Source: a phage. Taken from it: a stretch of DNA of 34,554 nucleotides. The position numbers and the translations under genes were made by a program. This document shows positions 6,359 to 21,073 of this stretch, piece by piece. Under the pieces are notes generated by a model. The model ran no database searches. It had not been told where the DNA came from and saw only the letters and a program-made list of their open reading frames with translations. Positions within the stretch are counted from its first letter, which is position 1. Every line of letters starts with the position of its first letter. The stretch is from NCBI GenBank assembly GCA_037431425.1, contig GCA_037431425.1_4129.4; one strand, 5' to 3'.

Positions 6359-6760
6359 ATGACCTTCTCAATCACTTCCTTCGCTGACGTTTTAGTACTG
6401 GCTCGGACTTTTGGCAAAGCTGGCCTTGAGCACGCTGTAAGTAATGGTTATATGCACCCGGAATATTGCCGCATTATCGGTAGCTGCAAACGTTGGACCG
6501 TGTCCCGTAATATTGAGATTGAAAACTTCAATGATGGTAACAACGAATATACAGTTGATGCAGTATTCGAATCCGTTGATCTCGGCGGTATCTATAACAC
6601 TAACTTGAATGATGTGCGTATCGTTCGCACGGGGTTCGGTGCTTATGATGTATCTATCCGTGAAGCGATGGACAAGGGATACATTAGCAAGGATCAGTTA
6701 GCTTACATTATGCAGCAGACTAAAGAGCGTAATGAAGCACGCACTATCTTAGGTCTGTAA
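6359..6760 (+). CDS. hypothetical protein (133 aa)
   Basis: ATG 6359 after RBS AAGGAG; track start 6326 lies inside the hairpin. Confidence 0.7.
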   Translation: MTFSITSFADVLVLARTFGKAGLEHAVSNGYMHPEYCRIIGSCKRWTVSRNIEIENFNDGNNEYTVDAVFESVDLGGIYNTNLNDVRIVRTGFGAYDVSIREAMDKGYISKDQLAYIMQQTKERNEARTILGL

Positions 6761-6785
6761 GCATTACACATCACTAAACATCATA

Positions 6786-6806
6786 GGCCGCTCTCTAGCG
6801 GCCTTA
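6786..6806 (+). terminator. GC hairpin, possible weak terminator or RNA stabiliser
   Basis: GGCCGCT-ctct-AGCGGCC perfect 7-bp stem; only a short T run follows. Confidence 0.4.
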
Positions 6807-6828
6807 ACTATATCAGGAGTACATACAC

Positions 6829-7038
6829 ATGATCTATACAGTATACAGCGTTCTAGGCACTATTGCAGGTGTACACGATAACGTCGATGATACTATGAGT
6901 ACAGTACTGCAACAGGTTCCACTAAAGCCTAAGACAGTTAAGAAGATGACCGCACGACTAACCAGGGCGACGGCTGGCGTGGAAGTATGGCAGGACTACG
7001 GGGATACACAGGTAATCGTAAGCGTAACGAAGGATTAA
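6829..7038 (+). CDS. hypothetical protein (69 aa)
   Basis: ORF with RBS CAGGAGT. Confidence 0.6.
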   Translation: MIYTVYSVLGTIAGVHDNVDDTMSTVLQQVPLKPKTVKKMTARLTRATAGVEVWQDYGDTQVIVSVTKD

Positions 7039-7065
7039 TACGTAAAATGATTTAGTACTGATTCA

Positions 7066-7132
7066 GAAAAAAGTCAAGGCGTTTTTAAAATAATGCGTTA
7101 AAAAAATGCATAGGTAATCCCTTGACTTTTTT
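7066..7132. terminator. symmetric terminator-like inverted repeat with a 40-nt loop
   Basis: A6-AGTCAAGG ... CCTTGACT-T6: 8-bp stem (7072-7079 / 7120-7127) flanked by A and T tracts, potentially bidirectional. Confidence 0.4.
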
Positions 7133-7229
7133 GAAATAAAAGGGATTGGACTATGGCAAAATGCGTAGGGGGGCTAAAGTGCGGGTAACTTAGCGACTTC
7201 GATAAAGGGGTATTACGAATAAAATGTTA

Positions 7230-7257
7230 TTGACTTTTTATATAAATCGTATAAAAT
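7230..7257 (+). promoter_or_regulatory. sigma70-like promoter driving the family A array
   Basis: -35 TTGACT 7230-7235, 16-nt spacer, -10 TAAAAT 7252-7257; the only obvious promoter before 13923. Confidence 0.5.
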
Positions 7258-7287
7258 ATGATTGATAATAATTTTAAGGGAGTCCCT

Positions 7288-7485
7288 GTGCGTATTTTAA
7301 CTCAAGCAGAACACCACGAAAGACTTATCAATAACATGGCTATGATAATGTATAAGTCCCATGAACGTGGTATTGCCTATAAGCGTGAATTAGTACTGGA
7401 ACTATTCATTGGGACTAACTATCAGGAAAGGTATGTCAACGATTGGATTTGGTATTTAATTGAAGATATAACGAGTAAACTATGA
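7288..7485 (+). CDS. family A small protein
   Basis: Motif FIGTNYQERYV; GTG 7288 after RBS TAAGGGA preferred because track ATG 7258 lies upstream of the predicted transcription start. Confidence 0.6.
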   Translation: MRILTQAEHHERLINNMAMIMYKSHERGIAYKRELVLELFIGTNYQERYVNDWIWYLIEDITSKL

Positions 7486-7676
7486 TAATTTTAACTAAAG
7501 AAGAATATCAATCACTGTTACGTAAAAACTACGTAAAGATTTACAATACAGACACACACGTAGAACGAATGGAGTTATACCTTTTGATTACATTGGGAAC
7601 TAACTATCAGGAAAGATGGGTGATTCAATATATGGATACATTGAAAAATAAAATATTGTCCACGAGGAAACAATGA
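7482..7676 (+). CDS. family A small protein
   Basis: Motif TLGTNYQERWV; ATGA overlap with upstream stop. Confidence 0.7.
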   Translation: MIILTKEEYQSLLRKNYVKIYNTDTHVERMELYLLITLGTNYQERWVIQYMDTLKNKILSTRKQ

Positions 7677-7882
7677 AAACTATAACACGAACCAAATCAT
7701 TAGGTCTTATCTTGAAATACATGGACTTAATGGTGGATATCAGCAAAGACCTTCCTAAAACTGCAATTGATGTTGCAAGAGCAGAGTACCGTCTATTAGC
7801 AGTACTGAATACTAACTATCAGGATGAATATGTTGACGATTGGATTCTATCATTAAAAAAAGATATAAAGAGTAAACTATGA
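7673..7882 (+). CDS. family A small protein
   Basis: Motif LNTNYQDEYV; ATGA overlap. Confidence 0.7.
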   Translation: MKTITRTKSLGLILKYMDLMVDISKDLPKTAIDVARAEYRLLAVLNTNYQDEYVDDWILSLKKDIKSKL

Positions 7883-8091
7883 TTTTTTTAACGCCAGAAG
7901 AATATAAGAAACGTTTTAGTTCGGTCCAGATAGAAATCTTACTTATATACAATTCAAATGCAAACCTTGACTTATCAAGAGTATTAGAAAAAGATTTACT
8001 TATGGGTGCATTTTTGGATACAGACTTTCAGGAGTATTATGTAGGGGAATATTTAATTGCACTCAAGAATTACATAAAGAGCAAACTATGA
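7879..8091 (+). CDS. family A small protein
   Basis: Motif FLDTDFQEYYV; ATGA overlap. Confidence 0.7.
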   Translation: MIFLTPEEYKKRFSSVQIEILLIYNSNANLDLSRVLEKDLLMGAFLDTDFQEYYVGEYLIALKNYIKSKL

Positions 8092-8300
8092 ATATCATTA
8101 ACTCAAATCAATATACAGAACGTGTTGCGGCAAGGCAACTTGAAATCCTCACAATATATGAAGAGACTGATGATTTAAACTTAGCATTAGCATTGGAAAA
8201 TGATATACTATTGGGTGCATTCCTTGGTACTAACTATCAGGAGCATTACTTGAATGAGTATATAATTGTCCTTCAAAAATACATAAAGAGCAAACTATGA
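8088..8300 (+). CDS. family A small protein
   Basis: Motif FLGTNYQEHYL; close paralog of 7879..8091; ATGA overlap. Confidence 0.7.
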   Translation: MNIINSNQYTERVAARQLEILTIYEETDDLNLALALENDILLGAFLGTNYQEHYLNEYIIVLQKYIKSKL

Positions 8301-8554
8301 AACACATAACTGATGATGAACATGAAACTATAATTCGTAAACTAACCCCCATCACAAGGATAGTCTACGGTGATCCCAGCCTCACATGGAACCAAATGCG
8401 AGCTAAAGTTAATGAGATATGGTTGCTGTACTTTATGGGGACTCAATATCAAGATAAGTTTTGCACAGAATATATCGAACAATTAATGAATGTTATACAG
8501 GATAAACTAAATGAACGAATTGTGGAAAAATATGAAAACTTTATCAAGCATTGA
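8297..8554 (+). CDS. family A small protein (C-terminally extended)
   Basis: Motif FMGTQYQDKF; usual stop after the DKL ending is absent, so the ORF reads 13 codons into the next gene. Confidence 0.65.
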   Translation: MKHITDDEHETIIRKLTPITRIVYGDPSLTWNQMRAKVNEIWLLYFMGTQYQDKFCTEYIEQLMNVIQDKLNERIVEKYENFIKH

Positions 8555-8783
8555 GTATCAGACTGCCCTCTTCTCTCTTCTAAACACCCTCCGCACGAAC
8601 AATAAACTTTATAATTCCCGTGAAGCTGATATTGTCAACGCTGATGTATATCTTAATAAATTTATAGGAACTAACTATCAAGAACTGTTTGTTTTACGAT
8701 ATATCTCTGCATTAAGAAACGAAATATCAGATAAAACCCGACAAGCCAGAAGAGAATGGAAGAAACAATGCGACACAGACTAA
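8511..8783 (+). CDS. family A small protein
   Basis: Motif FIGTNYQELFV; start lies within the 3' end of the previous ORF. Confidence 0.6.
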   Translation: MNELWKNMKTLSSIEYQTALFSLLNTLRTNNKLYNSREADIVNADVYLNKFIGTNYQELFVLRYISALRNEISDKTRQARREWKKQCDTD

Positions 8784-9019
8784 ATCACAAAATGTATTGT
8801 AAACTATTACAGGAACTGGCACAGAAACACTATAATACAATATCTTCCATATTACCCTATGATATCATGCGTTTAATTCATAGTGAGGCAGAGATGTTAG
8901 TACTGATGACCGGTACTGATAAAACAGCAATCACCAGATCGATAGAGCAATATATTGATGCACACTGTCAATGTATTAGAACTGAGATATGGAGGCGAGT
9001 AAATGAAAGTACTGAATGA
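8756..9019 (+). CDS. family A small protein (degenerate motif)
   Basis: Motif position reads LMTGTDK; start uncertain (ATG 8756 or 8768). Confidence 0.55.
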   Translation: MEETMRHRLNHKMYCKLLQELAQKHYNTISSILPYDIMRLIHSEAEMLVLMTGTDKTAITRSIEQYIDAHCQCIRTEIWRRVNESTE

Positions 9020-9218
9020 GTATCAGTATCATTGGAGGTTACAAGCTATAAGAGGGAAAGTTGTTAGTATTTCTTTAGACAAGTCTATTGCACAAGAGGA
9101 CAAATGTGTTATAATAGCTGAAATGAAGTTGGGTGTATTTGTAGGAACAAACTATCAAAACATCTACACTGACGTATTATTAAGTGCCTTACGCAACAAG
9201 GTGTTATCCAGAGAATGA
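9003..9218 (+). CDS. family A small protein
   Basis: Motif FVGTNYQNIY. Confidence 0.65.
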   Translation: MKVLNEYQYHWRLQAIRGKVVSISLDKSIAQEDKCVIIAEMKLGVFVGTNYQNIYTDVLLSALRNKVLSRE

Positions 9219-9433
9219 GAAAATTAATAGGTTACGAATATGTTAAGCTTCTAAAAACCTGTAGTAGTAGCAGGGTAAAGATTCAATCTGATAAGAGTAT
9301 TCCTGTTGATCTAAAGCACGCAATGATGGCTGAACTTTATGTAGGTGCACTATTGGGGACAAACTATCAACAAATGTATGTAGACCTATGGGTTGACGCT
9401 CTACTGAAAGAGGTCCAAAGTAAATGCAAATGA
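9215..9433 (+). CDS. family A small protein
   Basis: Motif LLGTNYQQMYV; ATGA overlap. Confidence 0.7.
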   Translation: MRKLIGYEYVKLLKTCSSSRVKIQSDKSIPVDLKHAMMAELYVGALLGTNYQQMYVDLWVDALLKEVQSKCK

Positions 9434-9642
9434 TTCATTTAAGTAAAGATGAATATTATGTTCGTCTTGCAAAAACTTATCCAGCACGTAACGCCGTTTA
9501 TAATAGTAACATTATTGAACGCTCAAAGAAGTTGATTGTAGTAAATGAGATTAAGATGCTTTCAGTCTTAGGAACAAACTATCAAGAGAATGCTGTACTG
9601 ATGTTAATTGATGCCCTCCAGAGAGAGATACAAAGTAAATGA
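9430..9642 (+). CDS. family A small protein
   Basis: Motif VLGTNYQENAV; ATGA-overlap start chosen (track ATG 9424 also possible). Confidence 0.65.
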   Translation: MIHLSKDEYYVRLAKTYPARNAVYNSNIIERSKKLIVVNEIKMLSVLGTNYQENAVLMLIDALQREIQSK

Positions 9643-9878
9643 TTAATTTATCTTTCCATGAATATCAAAAACGTTTAAATGCATCAAGGGATATAAGGAT
9701 TCAAATCTTCAATAACAAAAAATTGAAACCTGACACCAGAAGAATCAAAATAATAGAAGCAGAGTTATGTAACTTCCTGGGGACGAACCATCAGGAAGGT
9801 AAGATAAAAAACTATCTTAGAGAACTCATGATTTGTATCGAAAATAAATGTGATGCTTTGGAGAATAAAAATGATTAA
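9639..9878 (+). CDS. family A small protein
   Basis: Motif FLGTNHQEGKI; ATGA overlap. Confidence 0.7.
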   Translation: MINLSFHEYQKRLNASRDIRIQIFNNKKLKPDTRRIKIIEAELCNFLGTNHQEGKIKNYLRELMICIENKCDALENKND

Positions 9879-10116
9879 ATTATCTCAAGCAAAATATAAA
9901 GAACGCCTGGTGAAAATTGCACCTAGACTTAATGAAATCCATCACGGAGAAGTCATTAAACACGGAAATAAGATGATTATGAAACTTGAGTTAAAGGTGG
10001 GTGCATTCATAGGAACAAACTATCAGGAGTATTATGTAGATGAATACATAATCGCACTTAAGAGATACATTGGAAGAAAACTATATCTACAAACTAAAGA
10101 ATTGTATTGCAAATAA
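9871..10116 (+). CDS. family A small protein
   Basis: Motif FIGTNYQEYYV; ATG 9871 (MIKLSQAKY) preferred over track start 9850. Confidence 0.65.
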   Translation: MIKLSQAKYKERLVKIAPRLNEIHHGEVIKHGNKMIMKLELKVGAFIGTNYQEYYVDEYIIALKRYIGRKLYLQTKELYCK

Positions 10117-10133
10117 ATGCAAGGATAATGAAT

Positions 10134-10397
10134 ATGAAAATGATCAATTTAAGTAAAGATGAATATACCGAGCGTATGACAAAAATTATGCACAAACGTA
10201 ATACAATCTATCACAACCAAAAAATTCAACACAGTAAGAAAATGATTATGATGCGTGAGTTAAAGATGGGTGTATTCTTGGGAACAAACTATCAAGAGCC
10301 AGAAGTAAATCGATTAATTGCTGAGTTACTAATGGAAATCAAAGGTAAGCTGTACTTTTATCAAATGACCCGACCACTGAGGTGTACTGAACGATGA
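10134..10397 (+). CDS. family A small protein
   Basis: Motif FLGTNYQEPEV; ATG 10134 after RBS AAGGA; track start 10107 is TTG. Confidence 0.65.
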   Translation: MKMINLSKDEYTERMTKIMHKRNTIYHNQKIQHSKKMIMMRELKMGVFLGTNYQEPEVNRLIAELLMEIKGKLYFYQMTRPLRCTER

Positions 10398-10645
10398 GTA
10401 CTATGAATAAAATTAATAACATCAGATTATCAGAAAGATTTGATAGAATTGGTGAAGCCAGTAGAAGATACAATAGGGAATATGGTCATTTAAGCTTTTC
10501 TTTGGAAAAGAGATATGAACTTGAAGCAGAGTTTAAAATGCAGAGTCTCTTAGGTACACAGTACCAAGATCATTATGTAGAAAATTGGATTTCACTTCTA
10601 ATCCAATCAATTTATGTAAGGAGTATTAAATGCAAAATGGAATGA
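10394..10645 (+). CDS. family A small protein
   Basis: Motif LLGTQYQDHYV; ATGA overlap. Confidence 0.7.
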   Translation: MSTMNKINNIRLSERFDRIGEASRRYNREYGHLSFSLEKRYELEAEFKMQSLLGTQYQDHYVENWISLLIQSIYVRSIKCKME

Positions 10646-10860
10646 TATACTTAACCAACGAAGAATTTCAAGAAAAAATGATTAAATCAGGTAAGATTAC
10701 TCTTGAACATATACCAAATCAATCAGTATATGAAGTAGCAGCGAATGTATTGTTTCAGAAGCTACCGTACTTTCTGGGAACAGATAAACAAGAATTTTTG
10801 GTACAAAATATGATTGAGCATCTTCTAATGAGTATTAGGGAAAAAGTAAATGCAACATGA
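10642..10860 (+). CDS. family A small protein
   Basis: Motif FLGTDKQEFLV; ATGA-overlap start (track 10630 possible). Confidence 0.65.
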   Translation: MIYLTNEEFQEKMIKSGKITLEHIPNQSVYEVAANVLFQKLPYFLGTDKQEFLVQNMIEHLLMSIREKVNAT

Positions 10861-11110
10861 AATTATATACTTAACACATGATGAGTTAAAAGAAAGACTA
10901 GATAAATCCAAAAGACTTACAAATCAACTTCCTCACAACCCAAACCAAACCCCAGCGGAAAGGAGTGCAGAAGTTTTATTCCAGTCTTTGCCATACCTTC
11001 TTGGAACTGATAGGCAGGAGTATCACGTTGAACGTATAATTAAATATCTTAAAATTACTATTCAGGAAAAGATATATGAACATCAATATAAAAATCTTGA
11101 CGGTCAATGA
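10850..11110 (+). CDS. family A small protein
   Basis: Motif LLGTDRQEYHV; close paralog of 10642..10860. Confidence 0.65.
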   Translation: MQHEIIYLTHDELKERLDKSKRLTNQLPHNPNQTPAERSAEVLFQSLPYLLGTDRQEYHVERIIKYLKITIQEKIYEHQYKNLDGQ

Positions 11111-11327
11111 ATATCATAATATTATAATGAAGACTAATAGTGCAATTTCTAAAAAATCAAATCCAAAATACATACTGGAGCACACATTTGAAGAACGTCA
11201 ATTAGCTTTAGTTGAAGCAAAACTTCTTGCACTCCTAGGAACAAACTATCAAGAAGAGTACGTTAGAAAACTAATATACCTTTTAACTAAACACATCAGG
11301 AAAAGAAATTCAGTACTTGACCGATGA
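11076..11327 (+). CDS. family A small protein
   Basis: Motif LLGTNYQEEYV; 35-nt overlap with previous ORF. Confidence 0.6.
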   Translation: MNINIKILTVNEYHNIIMKTNSAISKKSNPKYILEHTFEERQLALVEAKLLALLGTNYQEEYVRKLIYLLTKHIRKRNSVLDR

Positions 11328-11517
11328 CGAATACGGTGTTATCATCCTTGATGTTATCAATAAAGAATACCACAGGAAACAACGTTACGCTTGTTATGAA
11401 GATAAGCAACTTTCTATAGCTGAACAACAATTAGTTCATTTATTAGGAACAAACTATCAAGAACAATGCACTGAACGTTACCTGTATCTTCTGTCGAGGA
11501 AAGCACAAAGATTATGA
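11317..11517 (+). CDS. family A small protein (non-ATG start)
   Basis: Motif LLGTNYQEQCT; the only in-frame start is TTG 11317. Confidence 0.5.
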   Translation: MTDDEYGVIILDVINKEYHRKQRYACYEDKQLSIAEQQLVHLLGTNYQEQCTERYLYLLSRKAQRL

Positions 11518-11729
11518 AAATTTTAAGCCACAGTGAACAAACAGAATTGTTAATCTTTAATACAAGTAAATTCTTAAACATAACATTGTCTGATATAGAT
11601 GAGGATGAAAAAGAGTTACTTAGAGCAGATTTAAGAGTTCTTTTATATATTGGAACTAACTTCCAAGAGCAATTCGTCGAGGACTACATCGATGAACTAA
11701 AGTCTGCTATCCAACGGAAATACAAATGA
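11514..11729 (+). CDS. family A small protein
   Basis: Motif YIGTNFQEQFV; ATGA overlap. Confidence 0.7.
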   Translation: MKILSHSEQTELLIFNTSKFLNITLSDIDEDEKELLRADLRVLLYIGTNFQEQFVEDYIDELKSAIQRKYK

Positions 11730-11971
11730 AAATTCTTTCAAGTTCTGAATACCACGAACTATTAAGTAGTTTAATTCTAAAGTTGTTTATAACAAAAAGT
11801 ACAAAATTACCGGATGAAGAAGTACGTATTCTAGTAAGTGAAGTATATGTTAAAGCTACACTAGGAACTAATTATCAAGAATGTAATATTAATGATTATA
11901 TCAATGATCTAAAAAGGTATATACAAAACAAATGCGAATCATTACCGAAACAGAATACCGAACAATCATAA
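11726..11971 (+). CDS. family A small protein
   Basis: Motif TLGTNYQECNI; ATGA overlap. Confidence 0.7.
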   Translation: MKILSSSEYHELLSSLILKLFITKSTKLPDEEVRILVSEVYVKATLGTNYQECNINDYINDLKRYIQNKCESLPKQNTEQS

Positions 11972-12159
11972 ATGGACTGTTTTTGAAGTTATTTGCCATT
12001 AACACATCAAAACTACCAGATACGGATAAAATTATTAAGTTAAATGAAATCTACGTTCAAGCAACTCTAGGAACTAACTATCAAGAAGCCAATGTTTATA
12101 ATTACATTAATACACTTAAACGAGAGATTGAACTAAAATGCCAATACACAAACCCCTAG
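11932..12159 (+). CDS. family A small protein
   Basis: Motif TLGTNYQEANV; close paralog of 11726..11971. Confidence 0.65.
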   Translation: MRIITETEYRTIINGLFLKLFAINTSKLPDTDKIIKLNEIYVQATLGTNYQEANVYNYINTLKREIELKCQYTNP

Positions 12160-12359
12160 GAACAGCAGAATACATTGAACTAATGGCAGCAAACTTCTCA
12201 TCCTTTAAGAAACTGATGCAAGAATCAAATAATGATTTAGAATATCATATCAAAAGTTCAGATTTAAGATTGCTACTCACTCTAGGAACAGACAGTCAGT
12301 ACAAATTCGTACAGGAACATATTAGAGCACTTTTAAATGGCATCAGGGCTAAACTATGA
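12138..12359 (+). CDS. family A small protein
   Basis: Motif TLGTDSQYKFV. Confidence 0.65.
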   Translation: MPIHKPLGTAEYIELMAANFSSFKKLMQESNNDLEYHIKSSDLRLLLTLGTDSQYKFVQEHIRALLNGIRAKL

Positions 12360-12571
12360 AGGAAATATCAAACCAAGAGTACTTGGCACTATTCAGAAAA
12401 AATAGTCAAGAATTTTTGAATATTGATACAAGGACTGATATAAGTGAACTTGAAAAAAATCTTTTGCGTTCAGAGATGATAGTACTGACACTCTTAGGAA
12501 CACAACATCAAGAGAGAACTGTTGATTCATATATTGAGATTCTTAAGAAGCTTATACAGGAAAAACTATGA
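12356..12571 (+). CDS. family A small protein
   Basis: Motif LLGTQHQERTV; ATGA overlap. Confidence 0.7.
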   Translation: MKEISNQEYLALFRKNSQEFLNIDTRTDISELEKNLLRSEMIVLTLLGTQHQERTVDSYIEILKKLIQEKL

Positions 12572-12789
12572 GAATCATAACACAACAAGATATGTTTAAG
12601 TTAGCAAGAGATTATACACCTGAATTTAATGCTATAGTATTAAAAAGTTACGATGACCCTTATACACAAGATGTACACTACAATGAATTATGGGTGTATA
12701 TACTTTTAGGTACAAATTATCAAGAGCAAGCAATACAGAGGTATTTGTTAGCTTTACGTGATGCTACTGCTAATGGAGTGATTGTTTAA
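12568..12789 (+). CDS. family A small protein
   Basis: Motif LLGTNYQEQAI; ATGA overlap. Confidence 0.7.
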   Translation: MRIITQQDMFKLARDYTPEFNAIVLKSYDDPYTQDVHYNELWVYILLGTNYQEQAIQRYLLALRDATANGVIV

Positions 12790-12790
12790 T

Positions 12791-13033
12791 ATGAAAGTAC
12801 TATCTGAATTACAAATGGGACAGAGATTTAATAAGTACTATCATTTACTGAAACCTATACAGAGGATTAAATGTTCTTATGATGAGAAACAGGTTTTAAT
12901 TTATGAGCACAAGTTCTTTGTATCATTAGGTACGAATCATCAAGAGTACTATTTGAAGTTGTACTTGATTACATTAATAGATTTAATTCACTATAAAACC
13001 AAACAAGCTAATAAAGAGAAATATGAAAACTAA
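12791..13033 (+). CDS. family A small protein
   Basis: Motif SLGTNHQEYYL; ATG 12791 directly after upstream TAA (track start 12782 is TTG). Confidence 0.65.
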   Translation: MKVLSELQMGQRFNKYYHLLKPIQRIKCSYDEKQVLIYEHKFFVSLGTNHQEYYLKLYLITLIDLIHYKTKQANKEKYEN

Positions 13034-13367
13034 TATACAACTCAAGGTGTATAAATCCTATGAACATATATATATCAAAAGTAGTCTATGTAGAGATGTA
13101 ATGGACTACAAGGGTAAGCCATTCACAATTACGTATGATTCTTATATTAATGATTTATATATATCATTTGTTAATTACGAAAATAAAATATACAAGCACG
13201 TTGATATTAAAGATTTAAGTACTTTATCACCAGAGGAATACTTTCAAGAATCATTAGTATGGGATTTAGAATTTCCTATGCCATTAGTACATAAAATGAT
13301 AGTACTAATGAAAGAAGCTAAACAGAAGCCTAATGGTGATTATGAAGAACACATTATTGAGTACTAA
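13023..13367 (+). CDS. family B protein
   Basis: Motif LSPEEYFQESLVWD; first family B member, embedded in the family A array. Confidence 0.65.
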   Translation: MKTNIQLKVYKSYEHIYIKSSLCRDVMDYKGKPFTITYDSYINDLYISFVNYENKIYKHVDIKDLSTLSPEEYFQESLVWDLEFPMPLVHKMIVLMKEAKQKPNGDYEEHIIEY

Positions 13368-13370
13368 ACA

Positions 13371-13595
13371 ATGAAAATATTATCATACGAAGATTACCGC
13401 AAGCTTCGCGGTATTTTGCGACCAGAAATTCAAAGAATTAATTCTCTTCCTATATCTAATGCAGAATGTTCAGTACTGAAAGATGAGTTAATATTAAAAC
13501 ACACAGTAGGAACTAACTATCAAGCTGATAGTGTTCGATATCTAATTTGGGGATTAATATGCATAGTAAAGGAAAAACAAGCTCAAGTACTGTGA
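13371..13595 (+). CDS. family A small protein
   Basis: Motif TVGTNYQADSV. Confidence 0.65.
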   Translation: MKILSYEDYRKLRGILRPEIQRINSLPISNAECSVLKDELILKHTVGTNYQADSVRYLIWGLICIVKEKQAQVL

Positions 13596-13921
13596 CAATC
13601 GAAGTGAATTCTATTAATGCTGGTAATGCAGTAGATAAGTTCTTTATTGCTCAAGGATACAGGAAAGATATTCATCAATATTGTTCAGTATATGGGGAGT
13701 ACAATAGTACTGAAGATATAATTTATTGGTCAACACATCAAGATTATCTAACTAAAATTGGTATTCCAGATGTTAGTACTTTATCTGAAGAAGAATACTT
13801 TCAGTACAGCTTAGTACATGATTTACCTATACCTTTAGGGTTAATTAAGGGTATGCAGGAAGAGGTTCATAAGCTTAAATCCATGAGTAAAGGTACTTTC
13901 ATTAGAACAGTGCAATACTAG
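13547..13921 (+). CDS. family B protein
   Basis: Motif LSEEEYFQYSLVHD; start uncertain (13547 or 13559). Confidence 0.6.
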   Translation: MGINMHSKGKTSSSTVTIEVNSINAGNAVDKFFIAQGYRKDIHQYCSVYGEYNSTEDIIYWSTHQDYLTKIGIPDVSTLSEEEYFQYSLVHDLPIPLGLIKGMQEEVHKLKSMSKGTFIRTVQY

Positions 13922-13922
13922 C

Positions 13923-13951
13923 TTGACAGTACTTTTCATTACTGATATAGT
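13923..13951 (+). promoter_or_regulatory. sigma70-like promoter
   Basis: -35 TTGACA 13923-13928, 17-nt spacer, -10 TATAGT 13946-13951. Confidence 0.55.
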
Positions 13952-13980
13952 ACACTAACGTTAATCATAGGGTAAAAATT

Positions 13981-14226
13981 ATGTTAAAATTTTTAAATTT
14001 CCTTATCGTCTTGTGTATTATTTTTGGGATTGCACCATTTGTATTGTATTTCATGGATTCAGATGAGATGCAGAAGATGAATTGCACAAAGACTGGACAG
14101 AGTAGAGAAGAGACGATTCTTATGCCTGTTACGGTTATTGTTAACAACATGCCCATTACAAACATGGTCCCTACCCTAACGACAAGGTGGCAGTACTCTT
14201 GTACAGACGGGGAGAGGTGGAGATGA
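13981..14226 (+). CDS. small putative membrane protein (81 aa)
   Basis: Hydrophobic N-terminal stretch LNFLIVLCIIFGIAPFVLYF consistent with one transmembrane helix; has its own promoter. Confidence 0.55.
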   Translation: MLKFLNFLIVLCIIFGIAPFVLYFMDSDEMQKMNCTKTGQSREETILMPVTVIVNNMPITNMVPTLTTRWQYSCTDGERWR

Positions 14227-14549
14227 TGCGTAATTTCAATTGTATTGTACGTAAGAATTCATGTTACATTGTAGTAGCTGATTTTAATACAGGTTCTGGG
14301 TTGAAGATATTTGAGTACAGAAAATGTAATAATTCTTTTCATTGGAAATTAGGTGCAAGAAAAACAAAAACAATTTCAGTACCGAATTTATGTTCTATCT
14401 CTGAAGAAGAAGAGTTTCAGTACATGTTAGTACATGATGATTCTTTAGGATTTACATTCAAAGATATGAAGGAAGTACAAAAGCAGATGATTGCACATTG
14501 TCATCTTCCAAAGAATTTTGTTCAACACGTATGTGAATTCCACATATAA
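14223..14549 (+). CDS. family B protein
   Basis: Motif ISEEEEFQYMLVHD; ATG 14223 overlapping upstream TGA preferred over track start 14187. Confidence 0.65.
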   Translation: MMRNFNCIVRKNSCYIVVADFNTGSGLKIFEYRKCNNSFHWKLGARKTKTISVPNLCSISEEEEFQYMLVHDDSLGFTFKDMKEVQKQMIAHCHLPKNFVQHVCEFHI

Positions 14550-14558
14550 GAGAAGAAT

Positions 14559-14870
14559 ATGAAATTTAATATAGCAAAAACATCGAGTATATGTATTTTT
14601 GGTTATGCAGAAGAGTTAGGTGATATTGACATTCTTTTGTACAAAAAGGATGGTGTTATGCATTTCAAGTACCAGGATGAAGAGGCAGACAATTATCTTT
14701 TGCCTAATTTAGTACAAATACAGGAAGATGAATTATTCCAATACAGTTTAGTATACGACATTGATATTTGCACGATGCCAGTACTAATGAATATACAAAA
14801 AGTGATGCTCGATATGTATGATAAGCTAATACAAGGTATGTCAGGGAGGATCATTGAAATCGATATATAA
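14559..14870 (+). CDS. family B protein
   Basis: Motif IQEDELFQYSLVYD; RBS AGAGAAG. Confidence 0.7.
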   Translation: MKFNIAKTSSICIFGYAEELGDIDILLYKKDGVMHFKYQDEEADNYLLPNLVQIQEDELFQYSLVYDIDICTMPVLMNIQKVMLDMYDKLIQGMSGRIIEIDI

Positions 14871-14898
14871 GAATTTACCCAAAGGAGATGCAATATAA

Positions 14899-15150
14899 AT
14901 GTACAAAAAAATAAACCGTTATTTGTATGCATCAAAGTACAGGGATTTTTGTTTACAAGGGGGTGAGGACGATTTCGGTCTGAGGCTATCGGAATTTAAT
15001 ATGTTATTTTATCTTGGTACATCCGTACAAGAAGAAATGGTACAGAAATTTCTCAATAACCTTGTACAAAAAATTAATATTCAAATTATGATGCATAAAT
15101 TACAGAATGAGATAAATGAATATGAATCTAGAAATAGTTCAGGATCTTAA
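14899..15150 (+). CDS. family A-like small protein (outlier inside family B region)
   Basis: Motif YLGTSVQEEMV; RBS AAGGAG. Confidence 0.65.
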   Translation: MYKKINRYLYASKYRDFCLQGGEDDFGLRLSEFNMLFYLGTSVQEEMVQKFLNNLVQKINIQIMMHKLQNEINEYESRNSSGS

Positions 15151-15511
15151 AAAAGTAATATTTCTTTTGAATATAAGAAGCTCTTTATATAAGGAGTTCA
15201 AAGATAAGGATGGTTCTTTTAAACCATTATGTATAGAATTCAATGATTTAATTACAGATGCATTGTTTGAATTTTCCGAGAAATATCAAGATACAGTGTT
15301 TGGTGTTAGGAATGCTATTCATCCAATTACAGGCACAAGGAAGATAACGTTATCTCATTTTACATTTGACAATAAAGATTTATTCAGTTATAATCCCAGT
15401 ACATCTTTATATTTTATTCCTAAAGGAGACAAGAATAGTCCTATTCATTACGGATGGATTATATCTTATGTAGTGCAAGGAAAGGAGTATCCTATCAAAT
15501 GGCACGATTAG
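15116..15511 (+). CDS. hypothetical protein (131 aa), no family motif recognised
   Basis: ORF in array context. Confidence 0.5.
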   Translation: MNMNLEIVQDLKKVIFLLNIRSSLYKEFKDKDGSFKPLCIEFNDLITDALFEFSEKYQDTVFGVRNAIHPITGTRKITLSHFTFDNKDLFSYNPSTSLYFIPKGDKNSPIHYGWIISYVVQGKEYPIKWHD

Positions 15512-15651
15512 GACAGGAAGATTATAGTTTAAATATATTATTAAGAAATATTAATGCGGATTATTGTGTATGGGTTAAGAATCGAGACATGATGTATTAT
15601 GATTTTTATTTAGATTATGCTATCAAACGCTTTTTAAGAGAAGAATATTAA
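15499..15651 (+). CDS. hypothetical small protein (50 aa)
   Basis: In-frame ATG 15499 of track ORF 15454..15651, after RBS AAGGAG; weak. Confidence 0.35.
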   Translation: MARLGQEDYSLNILLRNINADYCVWVKNRDMMYYDFYLDYAIKRFLREEY

Positions 15652-15827
15652 TGAAATTGGTTAATACAAAAGCAATAAATGATTTAAATGATTCTTTATT
15701 AGTAAGTATTAAGTTGTATTATAATATTCATTTAAAGGGTGGCATTAACGATTTTAGTTATTATTTAAGTGCAATATCACAAGAGCATTTAAATTATCAA
15801 GATCATTTATTACATCCAAATCCTTAA
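15651..15827 (+). CDS. hypothetical small protein (58 aa)
   Basis: ATG overlapping upstream TAA (TAATG); open 59 codons in AT-rich sequence; not in ORF track. Confidence 0.4.
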   Translation: MKLVNTKAINDLNDSLLVSIKLYYNIHLKGGINDFSYYLSAISQEHLNYQDHLLHPNP

Positions 15828-15835
15828 GGCAAATT

Positions 15836-16396
15836 ATGAATGAGATAGAGTTGTTATCGCACAAGATTAGTACAATAGCTACAGTACTGAACAACAAAAA
15901 TAAAGTACAGAGTTCCCTTTTAAGAATTAATAAAGTTGGTAGTAGTTTATATTTGGAAGTAAAAGCTGGTTTTGCAGGACAGTACAATGATAAAATCAGA
16001 GAAGAGGTTAAAGGCTACGAAGATGCTTTCATGGAGGTTTGTGCAATAGTTGGCTCAAACCCGATTTCAGTATCCCCTTTAATGCAGAATGAAAATTCAG
16101 AATTTGATTCCAGTTTTGAAGGTTATTTGTGGTACAATGCAGGTGATAATTATTTTATATATCAGAATTCCAAAACGGATTATAGTGAAGAAGGTATAAA
16201 ATTCATCGATCCTTACAATGAAGCAGAAGTATTTCAGAAATCCCTAATATACAATACAAACCAAATGAAGTATCTAATGTTGTTTAGTACAATGCATTTG
16301 AATCCATTGAAAGATAATTTAAAATTTTTCATTCGTTTAGAATTAGTTGATATTGCTTATAATCTTTTAATCCAAGGAAGTAGTTATGAAGTATAA
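15836..16396 (+). CDS. family B protein
   Basis: Motif NEAEVFQKSLIYN. Confidence 0.65.
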   Translation: MNEIELLSHKISTIATVLNNKNKVQSSLLRINKVGSSLYLEVKAGFAGQYNDKIREEVKGYEDAFMEVCAIVGSNPISVSPLMQNENSEFDSSFEGYLWYNAGDNYFIYQNSKTDYSEEGIKFIDPYNEAEVFQKSLIYNTNQMKYLMLFSTMHLNPLKDNLKFFIRLELVDIAYNLLIQGSSYEV

Positions 16397-16700
16397 AATG
16401 ATGTATACACCATCATTAGTATATGTAGAATTAGAATCAAATGATAATGGGTGGAATTTCATTAAACATATCGATACCAATACATGGTACATGGCTCACT
16501 TGGATAATAATGTGGTATCAGACCATTTTATGGATTTCAATACCTTAGAGGAAGATGAATTTTTTCAAGTACAATTGGTGCTTGACACAAATGGTTTTGA
16601 TATGGTATTATTAAGAAATATACAGAAAGCTGTTAATGAATTAATAGCTGAACATAATTTGGGTGAAATAAGGATTAGTTATGACCTCGAAGTACTGTGA
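16386..16700 (+). CDS. family B protein
   Basis: Motif LEEDEFFQVQLVLD. Confidence 0.65.
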   Translation: MKYKMMYTPSLVYVELESNDNGWNFIKHIDTNTWYMAHLDNNVVSDHFMDFNTLEEDEFFQVQLVLDTNGFDMVLLRNIQKAVNELIAEHNLGEIRISYDLEVL

Positions 16701-17031
16701 GTTTGAAATTAATAAGTTAAGAGAATGGTTTTATAATATTGAAATTGAGGCCATTCCTTATCATACATATGAACAAAGTGATTTACAATGTATTGATATT
16801 AGGGAGTTGTACAAATATTATCAAAGTGCGTTAGAGATGCATAAATTATTTTTGAGTACGGATTTCTTTATGCAGTATAATTTTGAGGAATATAATAATT
16901 ATAACTTAGTACAGAAATACGTAGTAGCAAAGTATATGTACATTCAAGGTATTAAAGGTTGTATTGAATTCAATACTGTTCTTGCTTTAGTTGAGGTAAT
17001 TTTATGTACAGCATGTGCATGTCTAATTTAG
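16681..17031 (+). CDS. hypothetical protein (116 aa), no clear family motif
   Basis: ORF with RBS AGGA; Cys-rich hydrophobic C-terminus. Confidence 0.5.
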   Translation: MTSKYCEFEINKLREWFYNIEIEAIPYHTYEQSDLQCIDIRELYKYYQSALEMHKLFLSTDFFMQYNFEEYNNYNLVQKYVVAKYMYIQGIKGCIEFNTVLALVEVILCTACACLI

Positions 17032-17522
17032 AGTTTAGTTTAGATGCAGCCTTTAAATTTACACATAAGATAGAAACAATATATAGTTTTTTTAGTGAAG
17101 TTTATGAAGTTTGTGCTAAACGATATATCGATACAATAGACATTAGCAATAAGTTCGATGTATGGCACAAAACAATCCAAAGCAAAAAGCAGTGTGCAGC
17201 AGTTTTTAGTGTTTTATCATTTAATCCCAGCAATTGTTACCCAGAGAAGCATGAACGTTATCCCAATGACGACATGTGGTTTGTGTACAAAGAAGATGCT
17301 GATATGTCGTCATTTGAAGTTCCTGATAATTTTGATATCAGTGATTTAACAGAAGAGTGGTGGTTCCAGCAGAATTTAGTACATGATGATATTGATTTAT
17401 TTTTCTATATCGTGTTCAAAATACTTTATCACAACAATATAGTTAAAGATAGTGTATCGTTTTCATGTCTATATATTGATGAGTTGTTCGAAGATATCAA
17501 AAATCACAAGCCTGTATCGTAA
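17004..17522 (+). CDS. family B protein
   Basis: Motif LTEEWWFQQNLVHD; RBS GAGGT. Confidence 0.7.
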   Translation: MYSMCMSNLEFSLDAAFKFTHKIETIYSFFSEVYEVCAKRYIDTIDISNKFDVWHKTIQSKKQCAAVFSVLSFNPSNCYPEKHERYPNDDMWFVYKEDADMSSFEVPDNFDISDLTEEWWFQQNLVHDDIDLFFYIVFKILYHNNIVKDSVSFSCLYIDELFEDIKNHKPVS

Positions 17523-17539
17523 GATATGGGCTTTTTTGT

Positions 17540-17568
17540 TTGACTCAAGTACAAATGAATGGTACAAT
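17540..17568 (+). promoter_or_regulatory. sigma70-like promoter
   Basis: -35 TTGACT 17540-17545, 17-nt spacer, -10 TACAAT 17563-17568; preceded by a weak hairpin plus T-run. Confidence 0.55.
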
Positions 17569-17593
17569 GTGAAATCATTTTAAGGAGAACCCT

Positions 17594-18142
17594 ATGGAAA
17601 ATTTTCAAATACCACTAGATTACGATACAGCGAAAGAGATGGTACACAAGGTTCATTACATTTTTAATGAATTAATTATTGCAAATTCATCTTGTATGCA
17701 AATTGAGTTAAAGGGTATTAATAGTGAAGAAGTTTTTTTGGCTTCTCCAAGTTCAATTATTCCGTTGTATGGTATGGACCGTTTATGGTTCATGAGAGAT
17801 GCACCAATTGACAGGTACAAAATACAAAAAAAATCAGAGAATGATTTTCTTTATGATTATTTTCATATTTCATTACAAGCACACGATATAAGTACAATGA
17901 GTGCAGAGGAATATTTTCAGCACAGTACAGTGTATAGTCCAGAAGAAATCTTTGTTGTTATGCTTGTTGCAAAATTGAGTACTGTTGATTTTGGGACGTA
18001 CCCAAATAAATCATTCAAGATTATTATTCCTGCATTTGTTGATCTTTATGATTTCATTGTGCACAAGAAAGAAAGTACAGTGTACGATATGCAGCGTTCA
18101 AATATCAGTTTAATTGCAGTAAGTGCAGGGGAATTAAAATGA
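17594..18142 (+). CDS. family B protein
   Basis: Motif MSAEEYFQHSTVYS; RBS AAGGAG. Confidence 0.7.
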   Translation: MENFQIPLDYDTAKEMVHKVHYIFNELIIANSSCMQIELKGINSEEVFLASPSSIIPLYGMDRLWFMRDAPIDRYKIQKKSENDFLYDYFHISLQAHDISTMSAEEYFQHSTVYSPEEIFVVMLVAKLSTVDFGTYPNKSFKIIIPAFVDLYDFIVHKKESTVYDMQRSNISLIAVSAGELK

Positions 18143-18747: not shown

Positions 18748-18748
18748 T

Positions 18749-18943: not shown

Positions 18944-18950
18944 GGTACAT

Positions 18951-19813: not shown

Positions 19814-19822
19814 GGAAGGATA

Positions 19823-20365: not shown

Positions 20366-20369
20366 TGGG

Positions 20370-20933: not shown

Positions 20934-21073
20934 AGACGTTTCGTATGATGTATTCAAACGTACAATAAAACAATACTATATAACTTTTTATAATTGATAT
21001 TTTTTAAAAAATACACAATCACAACGTGCTCCTTTTATTGGAATTTACCTTATTAATTATAGTTGAGGGGAAG

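What the first reader, a model, noticed from the sequence alone, without database searches (positions are those of the whole stretch)
7040..7257. Unusual 220-bp non-coding boundary between the cassette region and the paralog array
This is the longest non-coding stretch in the window. It contains a symmetric A6-stem...stem-T6 structure (8-bp stem AGTCAAGG/CCTTGACT enclosing a 40-nt loop, potentially a bidirectional terminator), a fragment resembling the start of the terminator repeat (AAAGGGATTGGAC at 7140-7152), a G-rich segment (GTAGGGGGGCTAAAGTGCGGG) and then the promoter for the family A array. It marks both the architecture change and the composition change, and could be a regulatory switch, a small RNA locus or a recombination junction.
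Basis: seen in the sequence. Interest (0 to 1): 0.4.

Follow-up and report, generated by a model that had tools for sequence, protein, structure and literature searches.

The report
Right end of jumbo-phage terminal repeat
The 220-bp gap is where the ~21-kb direct terminal repeat of an Asteriusvirus jumbo coliphage ends (the physical right end of the packaged DNA maps to 7190|7191), and it carries a ~90-bp cut-site block conserved, without a single indel, across jumbo phages of E. coli, Klebsiella, Salmonella, Erwinia and Xanthomonas.

Summary
The region is not a small-RNA locus or a generic switch. It is the right boundary of the long direct terminal repeat (DTR) of an Asteriusvirus (121Q/PBECO4-like) jumbo phage.

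- **Terminus position.** Seven deposited Asteriusvirus genomes end at the nucleotide homologous to window 7190. So do Klebsiella phage fENko-Kae01 and Erwinia phage Kaldavass.
- **Blind check.** My alignment placed the Xanthomonas phage XbC2 boundary at record position 17,581. Its paper reports a PhageTerm DTR of exactly 17,581 bp.
- **Conserved block.** From -80 to +8 around the cut the DNA aligns without gaps in 19 lineages whose neighbouring protein is only 25-58% identical. The conserved parts are AGGTAA, TTGACTTTT, TGGACTATG, exactly 35 nt of spacer, then CT|TAGCG.
- **Hairpin.** The 5' arm is lineage-specific, so the hairpin is not the conserved feature.
- **G-rich segment.** It is the terminal 35-nt spacer.
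- **Promoter.** The promoter at 7230-7257 is real and conserved.

Best reading: this is a site-specific terminase recognition and cleavage site, followed by the first promoter of the unique region. DTRs in this genus are already published. The conserved site architecture appears not to be described.

The parts
6829..7038 (+). Last gene of the direct terminal repeat (69 aa, unknown function). It serves as the synteny anchor for finding the boundary in other phages.
   Evidence: tblastn and profile searches find it at 25-58% aa identity in Kae01, the Salmonella Munch/7t3/SE_PL group, Erwinia pEa_SNUABM_50 and Kaldavass, Xanthomonas XbC2 and metagenome contigs. In the boundary-type loci examined it lies 129-225 nt (mostly 137-165) upstream of the cut column; a RaK2 homologue lacks the site and looks like a paralogue.
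7067..7079 (.). 5' arm of the 13-bp perfect inverted repeat (AAAAAAGTCAAGG). It is an inverted copy of the TTGACTTTT box and is specific to some lineages.
   Evidence: I9. It is present in Asteriusvirus and, with a shorter spacer, in Kae01 and its Salmonella relatives. It is absent in Turkey5 and JNE01. XbC2, pEa50, P0038, P0048 and P0020 have a direct second box in its place.
7112..7132 (+). Conserved block A, AGGTAATCCCTTGACTTTTTT (-79 to -59). It contains the 3' arm of the inverted repeat (7120-7132).
   Evidence: The ungapped cross-genus alignment gives a mean of 1.01 bits per column over -80..-56. TTGACTTTT occurs only at 7122 and 7230 in the whole window, and its reverse complement only at 7069.
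7147..7155 (+). Conserved block B, TGGACTATG (-44 to -36). It is the most conserved element and always lies 35 nt from the cut.
   Evidence: It scores 1.92 bits per column. The spacing is 35 nt in 19 of 19 sequences. GGACTATG is unique in the window.
7156..7190 (+). 35-nt terminal spacer.
   Evidence: The sequence varies between genera but the length is invariant. Relative to other Asteriusvirus genomes the window has compensating indels (G6 instead of G5, C instead of CC) that keep it at 35 nt.
7190..7191 (.). Predicted right physical terminus of the genome and right edge of the DTR. The cut falls between 7190 and 7191 (...AACT|TAGCGAC), with an uncertainty of about 1 nt.
   Evidence: Records of vB_Ec-M-J, fEgEco12, CRJP21, E9.1 and BF17 (ends) and of G17 and WPEC3 (starts, reverse complement) stop at the homologous base. 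Kae01 and Kaldavass stop in the same alignment column. The predicted XbC2 boundary, 17,581, equals the published DTR length.
7191..7215 (+). Conserved flank outside the DTR: TAGCGAC (block C) followed by the semi-conserved CGATAAAGGGGTATTAC.
   Evidence: Positions +1..+8 score 1.35 bits per column. TAGCGAC is unique in the window. An inverted copy (TAGTGAC) flanks the left DTR boundary in relatives.
7230..7257 (+). Sigma-70-type promoter of the first unique-region operon, the small-ORF paralog array (TTGACT-16-TAAAAT).
   Evidence: 10/12 match. It is conserved in all Asteriusvirus genomes examined that keep this stretch, including Turkey5 and JNE01 (SD-15 has it deleted). Several other lineages carry a TTGACA...TATACT/TATAAT promoter at the same place.
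7276..7290 (+). Ribosome-binding site AAGGGAG (7276-7282) and the likely true start codon GTG 7288-7290 of the first array gene.
   Evidence: Relatives have ATG at this position, and it is annotated as the start in phAPEC6 and 121Q. The ATG at 7258 directly abuts the -10 hexamer (7252-7257), so a transcript from this promoter would start downstream of it.

Best explanation
The gap is the junction between the left copy of a ~21-kb direct terminal repeat (DTR) and the unique part of an Asteriusvirus jumbo-phage genome.

**Shown by homology.** In packaged DNA the right end of the chromosome lies at the base homologous to window 7190. Everything up to 7190 is present twice per virion. Everything from 7191 onward is present once.

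**Inferred.** Positions 7112-7197 are the recognition and cleavage site used by the packaging nuclease (terminase) on replicative concatemers.
- Sequence-specific contacts fall on AGGTAA / TTGACTTTT (-79..-59) and TGGACTATG (-44..-36).
- A spacer follows whose length (35 bp, about 3.3 helical turns), not its sequence, is constrained.
- Cleavage occurs at CT|TAGCGAC.
- In relatives an inverted copy of CT|TAGYGAC marks the left DTR boundary. The same nuclease could therefore cut both edges in mirror orientation, with the repeat being duplicated by DNA synthesis.

**Promoter.** Immediately beyond the cut, the promoter at 7230-7257 starts transcription of the first unique operon. The DTR cassettes and the paralog array are therefore separate transcription units.

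**Hairpin.** The 13-bp inverted repeat is formed by two oppositely oriented TTGACTTTT boxes. At most it is an accessory, lineage-specific feature: extra binding sites for the same factor, or a weak terminator for the last DTR gene.
For: 1. **Identity of the phage.** The window is 87-97% identical to about 40 Asteriusvirus genomes. vB_Ec-M-J annotates 'Direct Terminal Repeats' 1..21525, and this maps to window position ~7190.
2. **Same terminus in Asteriusvirus.** Seven records stop at the identical base...GGGTAACCT|, and five start at the identical left end, AGTAGGCAG.
3. **Experimental basis of the termini.**
   - fEgEco12: PhageTerm plus restriction digests (PMC13070987).
   - BF17: PhageTerm (PMC10059673).
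   - G17: DTR of about 20 kb inferred from read coverage (PMC6563267).
   - Kae01: PhageTerm (PMC11218385).
4. **Other genera.** Kae01 and Kaldavass belong to other genera and share no general nucleotide similarity with the window. Their records end in the same alignment column.
5. **Blind prediction.** For XbC2 the last CDS ends at 17,416 and the cut lies 165 nt further, giving 17,581. The published PhageTerm DTR is 17,581 bp.
6. **Conservation.**
   - The alignment is ungapped from -80 to +8 in 19 sequences, with conservation peaks at TGGACTATG and at CT|TAGC.
   - A profile built only from non-Asteriusvirus lineages hits window 7107-7199 at E = 1.2e-12, with no other hit below E = 0.5.
7. 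**Spacing.** It is 35 nt in 19 of 19 sequences. The window keeps it through compensating indels.
8. **Mirror motif.** The left flank read outward is ...ACT|TAGTGAC; the right is ...CCT|TAGCGAC. They match at 8 of 9 positions in exact register, about 1e-4 by my own binomial estimate, not a tool result.
9. **Paired +1 variant.** Exactly the same three of about 33 genomes carry one extra T at the right cut and one extra A at the left cut.
Against: - No reads from this phage are available, so the terminus in this window is inferred only by homology. The window's own junction (AACT|TAGCGAC) differs by one C from the mapped relatives.
- Two deposited records disagree. ELP-22 stops 128 nt earlier, although it starts at the same left terminus (offset worked out by hand from the, 80 and 81 coordinates). 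UE-S1 reports an 8.3-kb DTR from a Nextera library, and PMC13070987 considers it mis-assigned.
- Some same-genus records may have been oriented by homology rather than mapped independently.
- No experiment links any protein to the conserved block. A transcriptional or injection-related role could also explain conservation at this position.
- The left-end mirror motif is seen only in Asteriusvirus. The left end of Kae01 (TATCTTCT...) does not show it.
- Turkey5 and JNE01 lack block A, so block A is not strictly required.
Confidence: 0.8

Rival explanations
1. The main function is transcriptional. The A6-stem-loop-stem-T6 is a (bidirectional) intrinsic terminator that insulates the DTR cassettes from the paralog array. 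The conserved block is simply the regulatory region of the first unique operon.
For: - The 13-bp perfect inverted repeat is flanked by A and T runs and is statistically unusual.
- The RNA fold has z = -3.5.
- A conserved promoter follows.
- Other lineages also carry some inverted repeat between the last gene and block A, such as ACTCATTTTT/AAAAATGAGT in Kae01 and TTATCTG/CAGATAA in XbC2 (read by eye; not tested statistically).
Against: - The loop is 40 nt, whereas the window's clear terminators are tight tetraloop hairpins, and the scan did not call this one.
- The 5' arm is missing in Turkey5 and JNE01 and is replaced by a direct repeat elsewhere.
- Within Asteriusvirus the changes are uncompensated: TTTTTT>TTTTAT in the vB_Ec-M-J, fEgEco12 and WPEC3 lineage, and G>A in the WPEC3 5' arm.
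- Conservation peaks exactly at the mapped cut, and the 35-nt spacing is fixed, which a terminator does not explain.
Confidence: 0.2
2. The conserved block is an injection-stop or first-step-transfer signal, like the iss region near the right edge of the T5 left terminal repeat. It would pause DNA entry after the DTR-encoded early genes have entered the cell.
For: - The position is analogous, at the right edge of a long DTR full of small genes behind strong sigma-70 promoters.
- It is non-coding and carries repeated boxes in both orientations.
- The comparison with T5 rests on my own knowledge of T5 biology, not on a tool result.
Against: - No evidence exists for two-step injection in Rak2-like phages.
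- Conservation straddles the cut and is maximal at the cut itself, which fits a nuclease site better.
- The block is about 90 bp, whereas the T5 iss region is over 1 kb and highly repetitive (from memory).
Confidence: 0.1
3. The region encodes a small regulatory RNA or a cis-acting RNA element.
For: - The fold is more stable than shuffles (z = -3.5).
- The region is non-coding and conserved.
Against: - There is no Rfam family at gathering score, and only a 25-bit noise hit (gathering score 80) in the permissive scan.
- No promoter upstream of the block was called beyond a weak 9/12 match at 7062-7091.
- Conservation runs in ungapped sequence blocks, with no compensatory pairs.
- In the right-hand DTR copy the element is cut in two at the chromosome end.
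Confidence: 0.03
4. It is a passive mosaic junction where two modules were joined by recombination, with no site-specific function. The termini coincide with it only because the DTR happens to end there.
For: - There are indels and an inserted gene just beyond the boundary in PBECO4, BF17 and SD-15, and an 80-nt tandem duplication in Turkey5.
- There is a GC step.
Against: - A passive junction would not keep a 90-bp block ungapped across genera whose flanking protein is only 25-40% identical.
- It would not keep the spacing through compensating indels.
- It would not show a mirror motif at the other boundary.
Confidence: 0.05

Closest known systems
Long direct terminal repeats of Asteriusvirus and Rak2-like jumbo phages (G17, BF17, vB_Ec-M-J, fEgEco12, fENko-Kae01, XbC2, CBB)
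   Same: This is the same element. The boundary in the window is homologous, base for base, to the published or deposited right ends, and the DTR is about 20-21.5 kb.
   Different: The papers I could search report only DTR lengths, PhageTerm classes and restriction patterns. None describes the conserved terminal block, the 35-nt spacing, the mirror cut motif or the paired +1 variants.
T7/T3 concatemer-junction processing sites and T5/SPO1-type long DTR ends (own knowledge)
   Same: The ends are fixed and non-permuted, generated by site-specific cutting at both edges of a single repeat copy in concatemers, with the repeat duplicated by synthesis. PhageTerm classes these jumbo phages as 'DTR long, T5 type'.
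   Different: There is no sequence similarity. The repeat is 21 kb rather than 160 bp (T7) or 10 kb (T5). According to the CBB paper the group is T4-related, and it discusses T4's headful packaging and a T4 endonuclease VII homologue; the excerpt I read does not describe the terminase itself. T4 itself packages by headful, so site-specific cutting here would be a departure.
Lambda cos (cosN nicking site plus adjacent cosB binding site) (own knowledge)
   Same: The architecture matches: a short, partly symmetric cleavage core, with specific binding elements at a fixed distance on one side.
   Different: Lambda produces 12-nt cohesive ends and no terminal repeat. Here the records show a 21-kb direct repeat. 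No binding protein has been identified.
Promoter-embedded stem-loop cassettes (PeSL) of T4-type phages (own knowledge, not tested)
   Same: The upstream 'terminator repeats' (484-513, 3424-3451, 5707-5734) are hairpins that carry a -35 box in the stem and are followed by a -10. The boundary shares their first 10 nt, AAAGGGATTG.
   Different: At 7139-7151 there is no second arm and no -10. The GATTGGACTATG part is ancestral to the terminal site in other genera, which have no such cassette similarity.

Membership tests
Right boundary of the Asteriusvirus / Rak2-like direct terminal repeat | The position is homologous to a mapped virion DNA end in related genomes. | tested here: met
   Seven Asteriusvirus records, Kae01 and Kaldavass end in the same alignment column. 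The XbC2 prediction of 17,581 equals the published DTR length.
Right boundary of the Asteriusvirus / Rak2-like direct terminal repeat | DNA to the left is present twice per genome and DNA to the right once. | tested here: inconclusive
   This holds in relatives. Records that carry both repeat copies give two places for the left part only, and the second copy stops at the boundary. It cannot be checked for this phage, because the window does not contain the other genome end.
Right boundary of the Asteriusvirus / Rak2-like direct terminal repeat | A read-start pile-up or a twofold coverage step at the boundary in this phage's own virion reads. | not testable with these tools
   No reads are available.
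Right boundary of the Asteriusvirus / Rak2-like direct terminal repeat | Conserved synteny: the 69-aa gene is the last DTR gene, followed by about 130-225 nt of non-coding DNA up to the end. | tested here: met
Site-specific terminase cleavage site (pac/cos-like) | A conserved sequence centred on the cleavage position, more conserved than its flanks. | tested here: met
   Information content peaks at -44..-36 (1.92 bits per column) and +1..+8 (1.35), against 0.25-0.55 in the flanks. nhmmer gives E = 1.2e-12 with a profile that excludes the window's own genus.
Site-specific terminase cleavage site (pac/cos-like) | Binding and cutting by the phage terminase. | not testable with these tools
   This needs biochemistry or genetics.
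Rho-independent (intrinsic) terminator | A G+C-rich stem immediately followed by a U-tract. | tested here: met
   The stem AGUCAAGG/CCUUGACU has 8 bp (4 G-C pairs) and is followed by U5.
Rho-independent (intrinsic) terminator | A short loop (about 3-8 nt). | tested here: not met
   The loop is 40 nt, and the terminator scan did not call it.
Rho-independent (intrinsic) terminator | Pairing maintained in relatives, with compensatory changes. | tested here: not met
   Changes in the vB_Ec-M-J, fEgEco12 and WPEC3 lineage are uncompensated. The 5' arm is absent in Turkey5 and JNE01 and in most other genera.
Known structured RNA / sRNA family (Rfam 15) | A covariance-model match at gathering score. 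| tested here: not met
   There are 0 matches at gathering score in the whole window. The best permissive hit is 25.3 bits against a gathering score of 80. No tRNA or tmRNA was found.
Sigma-70 promoter (7230-7257) | -35 and -10 hexamers with 16-18 nt spacing, conserved in position upstream of the first unique gene. | tested here: met
   TTGACT-16-TAAAAT scores 10/12. It is conserved in Asteriusvirus (except SD-15, where it is deleted), and several other lineages have an analogous promoter.
T5-type injection-stop signal | Two-step DNA entry that pauses at the signal. | not testable with these tools
   Only the positional analogy (right edge of a long DTR) can be seen.

The most novel reading that the evidence does not exclude
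The block 7112-7197 is the first defined 'ter' site for long-DTR jumbo phages. It would consist of a bipartite recognition element, a spacer of strictly 35 bp, and a CT|TAGYGAC core used in mirror orientation at both repeat edges. The recurrent paired +1 variants (one extra T at the right cut and one extra A at the left cut, in the same three unrelated genomes) would be molecular scars showing two things: virion 3' ends carry one extra T, and the ends are copied into both junctions when terminal repeats anneal to form concatemers.
Probability: 0.3. Interest if true: 0.65.

Novelty: new member of a known kind. Interest (0 to 1): 0.45.

Why it matters
**Annotation.** Most Asteriusvirus and Rak2-like genomes are deposited with arbitrary start points and without their repeat. 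A 90-bp signature (TGGACTATG-N35-TAGCG) would let anyone place the true right end from sequence alone. It predicted the XbC2 DTR length to the base.

**Mechanism.** How 10-65-kb terminal repeats are measured out and duplicated is unresolved for T5-type and jumbo phages. A compact conserved site with a fixed spacing, and a mirror copy at the other boundary, gives a concrete substrate for terminase biochemistry and mutagenesis.

**This window.** The boundary explains both the change of gene architecture and the GC step.

Tried and rejected
- **IMG/VR searches.** An exact 30-mer scan found nothing. A protein-guided scan confirmed no relative.
- **RNA searches.** Rfam (gathering and permissive) and tRNA/tmRNA searches found nothing usable.
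- **RaK2 / K64-1 homologue.** The 33%-identical copy of the 69-aa protein sits inside a gene array with no terminal block, so it is a paralogue and not the boundary.
- **Block B at the left end.** I looked for an inverted TGGACTATG near the left terminus. By eye there is only a weak, gapped resemblance (GTAGTTTCCAAGCTCC against ATAGTCCAATCCC) at a different offset, and nhmmer finds nothing there below E = 0.75. Rejected.
- **AGTACT box at 7054-7059.** I considered it part of the site because similar boxes sit near both termini. AGTACT occurs 119 times in the window, so its presence here is expected from local density.
- **Sigma-70 promoter from TTGACT at 7122.** There is no acceptable -10 at 16-18 nt in any lineage (reading).
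- **T4 MotA-box-like TTTGCTTA in the spacer.** It is present in other genera but absent from the window and from all Asteriusvirus, so it is not relevant here.
- **Nanopore homopolymer error as the cause of the paired +1 variants.** ELP-22 and BF17 were sequenced on Illumina, so this cause is unlikely for those two. The platform for vB_Ec-M-J is unknown. An artefact from read pile-ups at the termini remains possible.

Full report
**What is in the sequence.**

- AAAAAAGTCAAGG (7067-7079) and CCTTGACTTTTTT (7120-7132) form a 13-bp perfect inverted repeat with a 40-nt spacer.
- Dinucleotide shuffles give 0.15 such repeats per window and about 0.001 per 220 nt.
- The G-rich stretch is at 7165-7185.
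- A TTGACT-16-TAAAAT promoter is at 7230-7257.
- No ORF of 20 aa or more lies inside 7056-7257 on either strand.
- By mechanical ORF calling the gap ties with 3413-3631 at 219 nt. Relatives start the next gene at the position of GTG 7288, behind AAGGGAG, so the true gap is 249 nt.
- GC falls from 0.377 (1-7190) to 0.314 (7191 to the end).

**Where the window comes from.**

The region is 87-97% identical to about 40 Asteriusvirus jumbo coliphages, including 121Q, PBECO4, phAPEC6, ph0011 and UE-S1. Records of about 348 kb match once. Most records of about 366-384 kb match twice, which pointed to a terminal repeat. In vB_Ec-M-J, 'Direct Terminal Repeats' are annotated at 1..21525. Window 6900-7395 aligns to 21235-21730 of that record, which puts the repeat's right edge inside the finding.

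**Exact boundary.**

I fetched the record ends and aligned them.
- vB_Ec-M-J, fEgEco12, CRJP21, E9.1 and BF17 all end at ...GCGTAGGGGGCTAAAGGGCGGGTAACCT.
- G17 and WPEC3 begin with the reverse complement of the same sequence.
- This corresponds to window 7190|7191 (...GGGTAACT|TAGCGAC).
- The five forward records also share one left end, AGTAGGCAGAGGAAGTCTGCC.

The termini have experimental backing.
- fEgEco12: PhageTerm plus restriction digests (PMC13070987).
- BF17: PhageTerm (PMC10059673).
- G17: a DTR of about 20 kb inferred from read coverage (PMC6563267).

Two records dissent.
- ELP-22 starts at the same left end but stops 128 nt short on the right (offset worked out by hand from the, 80 and 81 coordinates).
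- UE-S1 reports an 8.3-kb repeat from a Nextera library. The fEgEco12 authors consider it mis-assigned.

**Deep conservation.**

The 69-aa gene at 6829-7038 is the last gene of the repeat. tblastn and a profile search found it at 25-58% identity in several groups:
- Klebsiella phage fENko-Kae01;
- the Salmonella Munch/7t3/SE_PL group;
- Erwinia phages pEa_SNUABM_50 and Kaldavass;
- Xanthomonas phage XbC2;
- metagenome contigs.

I retrieved the DNA downstream of it in 13 further lineages. Anchored on GACTATG, all 19 sequences align without any gap from about -80 to +8. The conserved parts are:
- AGGTAA (-79..-74);
- TTGACTTTTCT (-69..-59);
- TGGACTATG (-44..-36);
- AAAGG (-17..-13);
- CT|TAGC(G) (-2..+5).

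Information content is 1.92 bits per column at TGGACTATG and 1.35 at +1..+8, against 0.25-0.55 in the flanks. A profile built only from non-Asteriusvirus sequences finds window 7107-7199 at E = 1.2e-12. Nothing else in the window or in the left-end loci scores below E = 0.5.

**The terminus column is the same in four lineages.**

The Kae01 record (PhageTerm DTR of 19,736 bp; PMC11218385) and the Kaldavass record end exactly at the cut column. For XbC2 the alignment put the cut 165 nt after the last repeat CDS, which is record position 17,581. Only afterwards did I read that its PhageTerm DTR is 17,581 bp, with the record starting at the repeat (PMC11273794). That was a blind, base-exact confirmation.

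**Spacing.**

TGGACTATG is followed by exactly 35 nt before the cut in 19 of 19 sequences, although the 35 nt differ almost completely between genera. Relative to its closest relatives the window has G6 instead of G5 and C instead of CC. These two indels cancel and preserve the 35 nt. This argues for selection on distance, as expected for a protein that binds one element and cuts at a fixed offset.

**The hairpin.**

Its 3' arm is block A, which is conserved across genera. Its 5' arm is not.
- Turkey5 and JNE01 lack it.
- XbC2, pEa50, P0038, P0048 and P0020 have a second direct copy (CTTGACTTTTAAAATG) about 30 nt upstream instead.
- Kae01 and its Salmonella relatives have AAGTCAA...TTGACTT with a spacer of about 22 nt.
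- Within Asteriusvirus the observed changes break pairs without compensation.

TTGACTTTT occurs in the window only at 7122 and 7230, and its reverse complement only at 7069. I therefore read these as protein-binding boxes of variable number and orientation, not as a conserved RNA or DNA hairpin. A weak terminator role for the last DTR gene in Asteriusvirus cannot be excluded. The loop is 40 nt, however, and the phage's obvious terminators are tight tetraloop hairpins.

**Left boundary and mirror symmetry.**

In relatives the unique DNA preceding the right repeat copy ends ...GATATGTCACTA|AGTAGG. fEgEco12 has ...CCCACTA|AGTAGG instead. Read outward from the repeat, the left edge is ...ACT|TAGTGAC and the right edge is ...CCT|TAGCGAC. 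These match at 8 of 9 positions in exact register (about 1e-4 by my own binomial estimate). The right flank in other genera fits TAGYGRC as well. The left end of Kae01 does not obviously fit, so I treat the symmetry as supported only within Asteriusvirus.

**An unexpected covariation.**

Length bookkeeping and two exact 31-mer searches gave the same result. BF17, vB_Ec-M-J and ELP-22, and only these among about 33 genomes, have AACCT|TTAGCG at the right junction and CACTAA|AGTAGG at the left junction. That is one extra base exactly at each cut.
- According to Table 2 of PMC13070987 the three belong to different species clusters.
- For ELP-22 and vB_Ec-M-J, close relatives (SP27; fEgEco12) lack both extra bases.
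- ELP-22 and BF17 were sequenced on Illumina.
- The chance that the same 3 of 33 genomes are hit at both junctions is about 1/5456.

The change equals one extra T on each 3' end of the repeat. A speculative reading is that virion ends carry a 1-nt 3' T, and that this base is occasionally sealed into both junctions when the two repeat copies anneal during concatemer formation. An artefact of read pile-ups at the termini is the alternative. The raw reads would decide between them.

**Mechanism proposed.**

- Shown: this is the DTR/unique junction, and the right chromosome end is at 7190|7191 by homology.
- Inferred: 7112-7197 is the site at which the packaging nuclease recognises concatemers and cuts.
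- Inferred: a mirror core lies at the left boundary.
- Inferred: the repeat is duplicated by synthesis, as generally assumed for DTR phages.
- Inferred: the promoter at 7230-7257 then launches the first unique operon.

**Novelty.**

The repeat itself is published for this genus and its relatives. In the papers I could search I found no description of the terminal block, its spacing, the mirror core or the paired +1 variants. I rate this a new member of a known kind, namely site-specific DTR end sites. It has practical value for placing genome ends, and moderate mechanistic interest.

Noticed in passing
whole window (for example 7054-7059); also L008-L013 1-200, L024 1-200, L026 500-600: The palindrome AGTACT is about tenfold over-represented. 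There are 119 copies against about 11 expected from base composition (43 against 2.3 in the DTR part, 76 against 9.0 in the unique part). It occurs in all three reading frames and in non-coding DNA, with a weak CAGTACTG preference. It is also dense near the left termini of Asteriusvirus and Kae01. It looks like a DNA-level signal of unknown function. A search for papers containing AGTACT, 'jumbo' and 'phage' found none.
   Followed up: partly
relatives: MW822008.1 20573-20603 and 362898-362928; OQ718158.1 21508-21538 and 357043-357073; OR699282.2 21390-21420 and 352204-352234: Exactly the same three of about 33 Asteriusvirus genomes carry one extra T at the right DTR cut and one extra A at the left DTR cut. 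They belong to different species clusters, and two of them were sequenced on Illumina. This is either a scar of end processing and concatemer formation or an artefact at the termini.
   Followed up: partly
window 484-513, 3424-3451, 5707-5734: These are repeated hairpin terminators (AAAGGGATTGACTCCGGTCAGTCCCTTT) whose stem contains a -35 box (TTGACT) and which are followed by a -10 (TATTAT). They therefore act as combined terminator-promoter cassettes between DTR genes, reminiscent of the PeSL cassettes of T4-type phages (that comparison is from memory).
   Followed up: no
L008/L010-L013 1-26 and 1-1700; L024 1-25: The left genome terminus of Asteriusvirus begins with a hairpin-capable inverted repeat (AGTAGGCAGA GGAAG TCTGCCGTACT) and is followed by about 1.7 kb with essentially no annotated gene. 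Kae01 also starts with an 8-bp inverted repeat (TATCTTCT...AGAAGATA).
   Followed up: no
just right of window 7205-7215, seen in L018 (PBECO4), MW822008.1 (BF17, inferred, not fetched), L019 (SD-15) and L020 (Turkey5): The first 15-20 nt beyond the DTR edge are an indel hot spot. PBECO4, and by inference BF17, carry an extra ~366-nt gene with its own promoter. SD-15 has a deletion that removes the promoter. Turkey5 has an ~80-nt tandem duplication just after the last DTR gene.
   Followed up: partly
window 7168-7173 and 7189: Compared with its closest relatives the window has G6 instead of G5 and a single C instead of CC. The two indels cancel, so the TGGACTATG-to-cut distance stays at 35 nt.
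   Followed up: yes
window 6326-6760 and 6829-7038: The last two DTR genes (144 aa and 69 aa) form a syntenic pair. In most lineages examined the conserved 66-79-aa gene is preceded by a 130-145-aa gene (about 100 aa in four metagenome contigs). Homology of the upstream gene was not checked. Both have unknown function and no Pfam domain on record.
   Followed up: partly
window 7258 against 7288: Mechanical ORF calling starts the first array gene at ATG 7258, which directly abuts the promoter's -10 hexamer. The homologous start is GTG 7288 (ATG in relatives), behind the ribosome-binding site AAGGGAG.
   Followed up: yes
OR699282.2 (ELP-22) record end; ON568341.1 (UE-S1): Two deposited genomes have right ends or DTR lengths inconsistent with the consensus terminus. 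ELP-22 stops 128 nt early. UE-S1 reports 8.3 kb from a transposase library. Both are probably annotation problems and not biology.
   Followed up: partly
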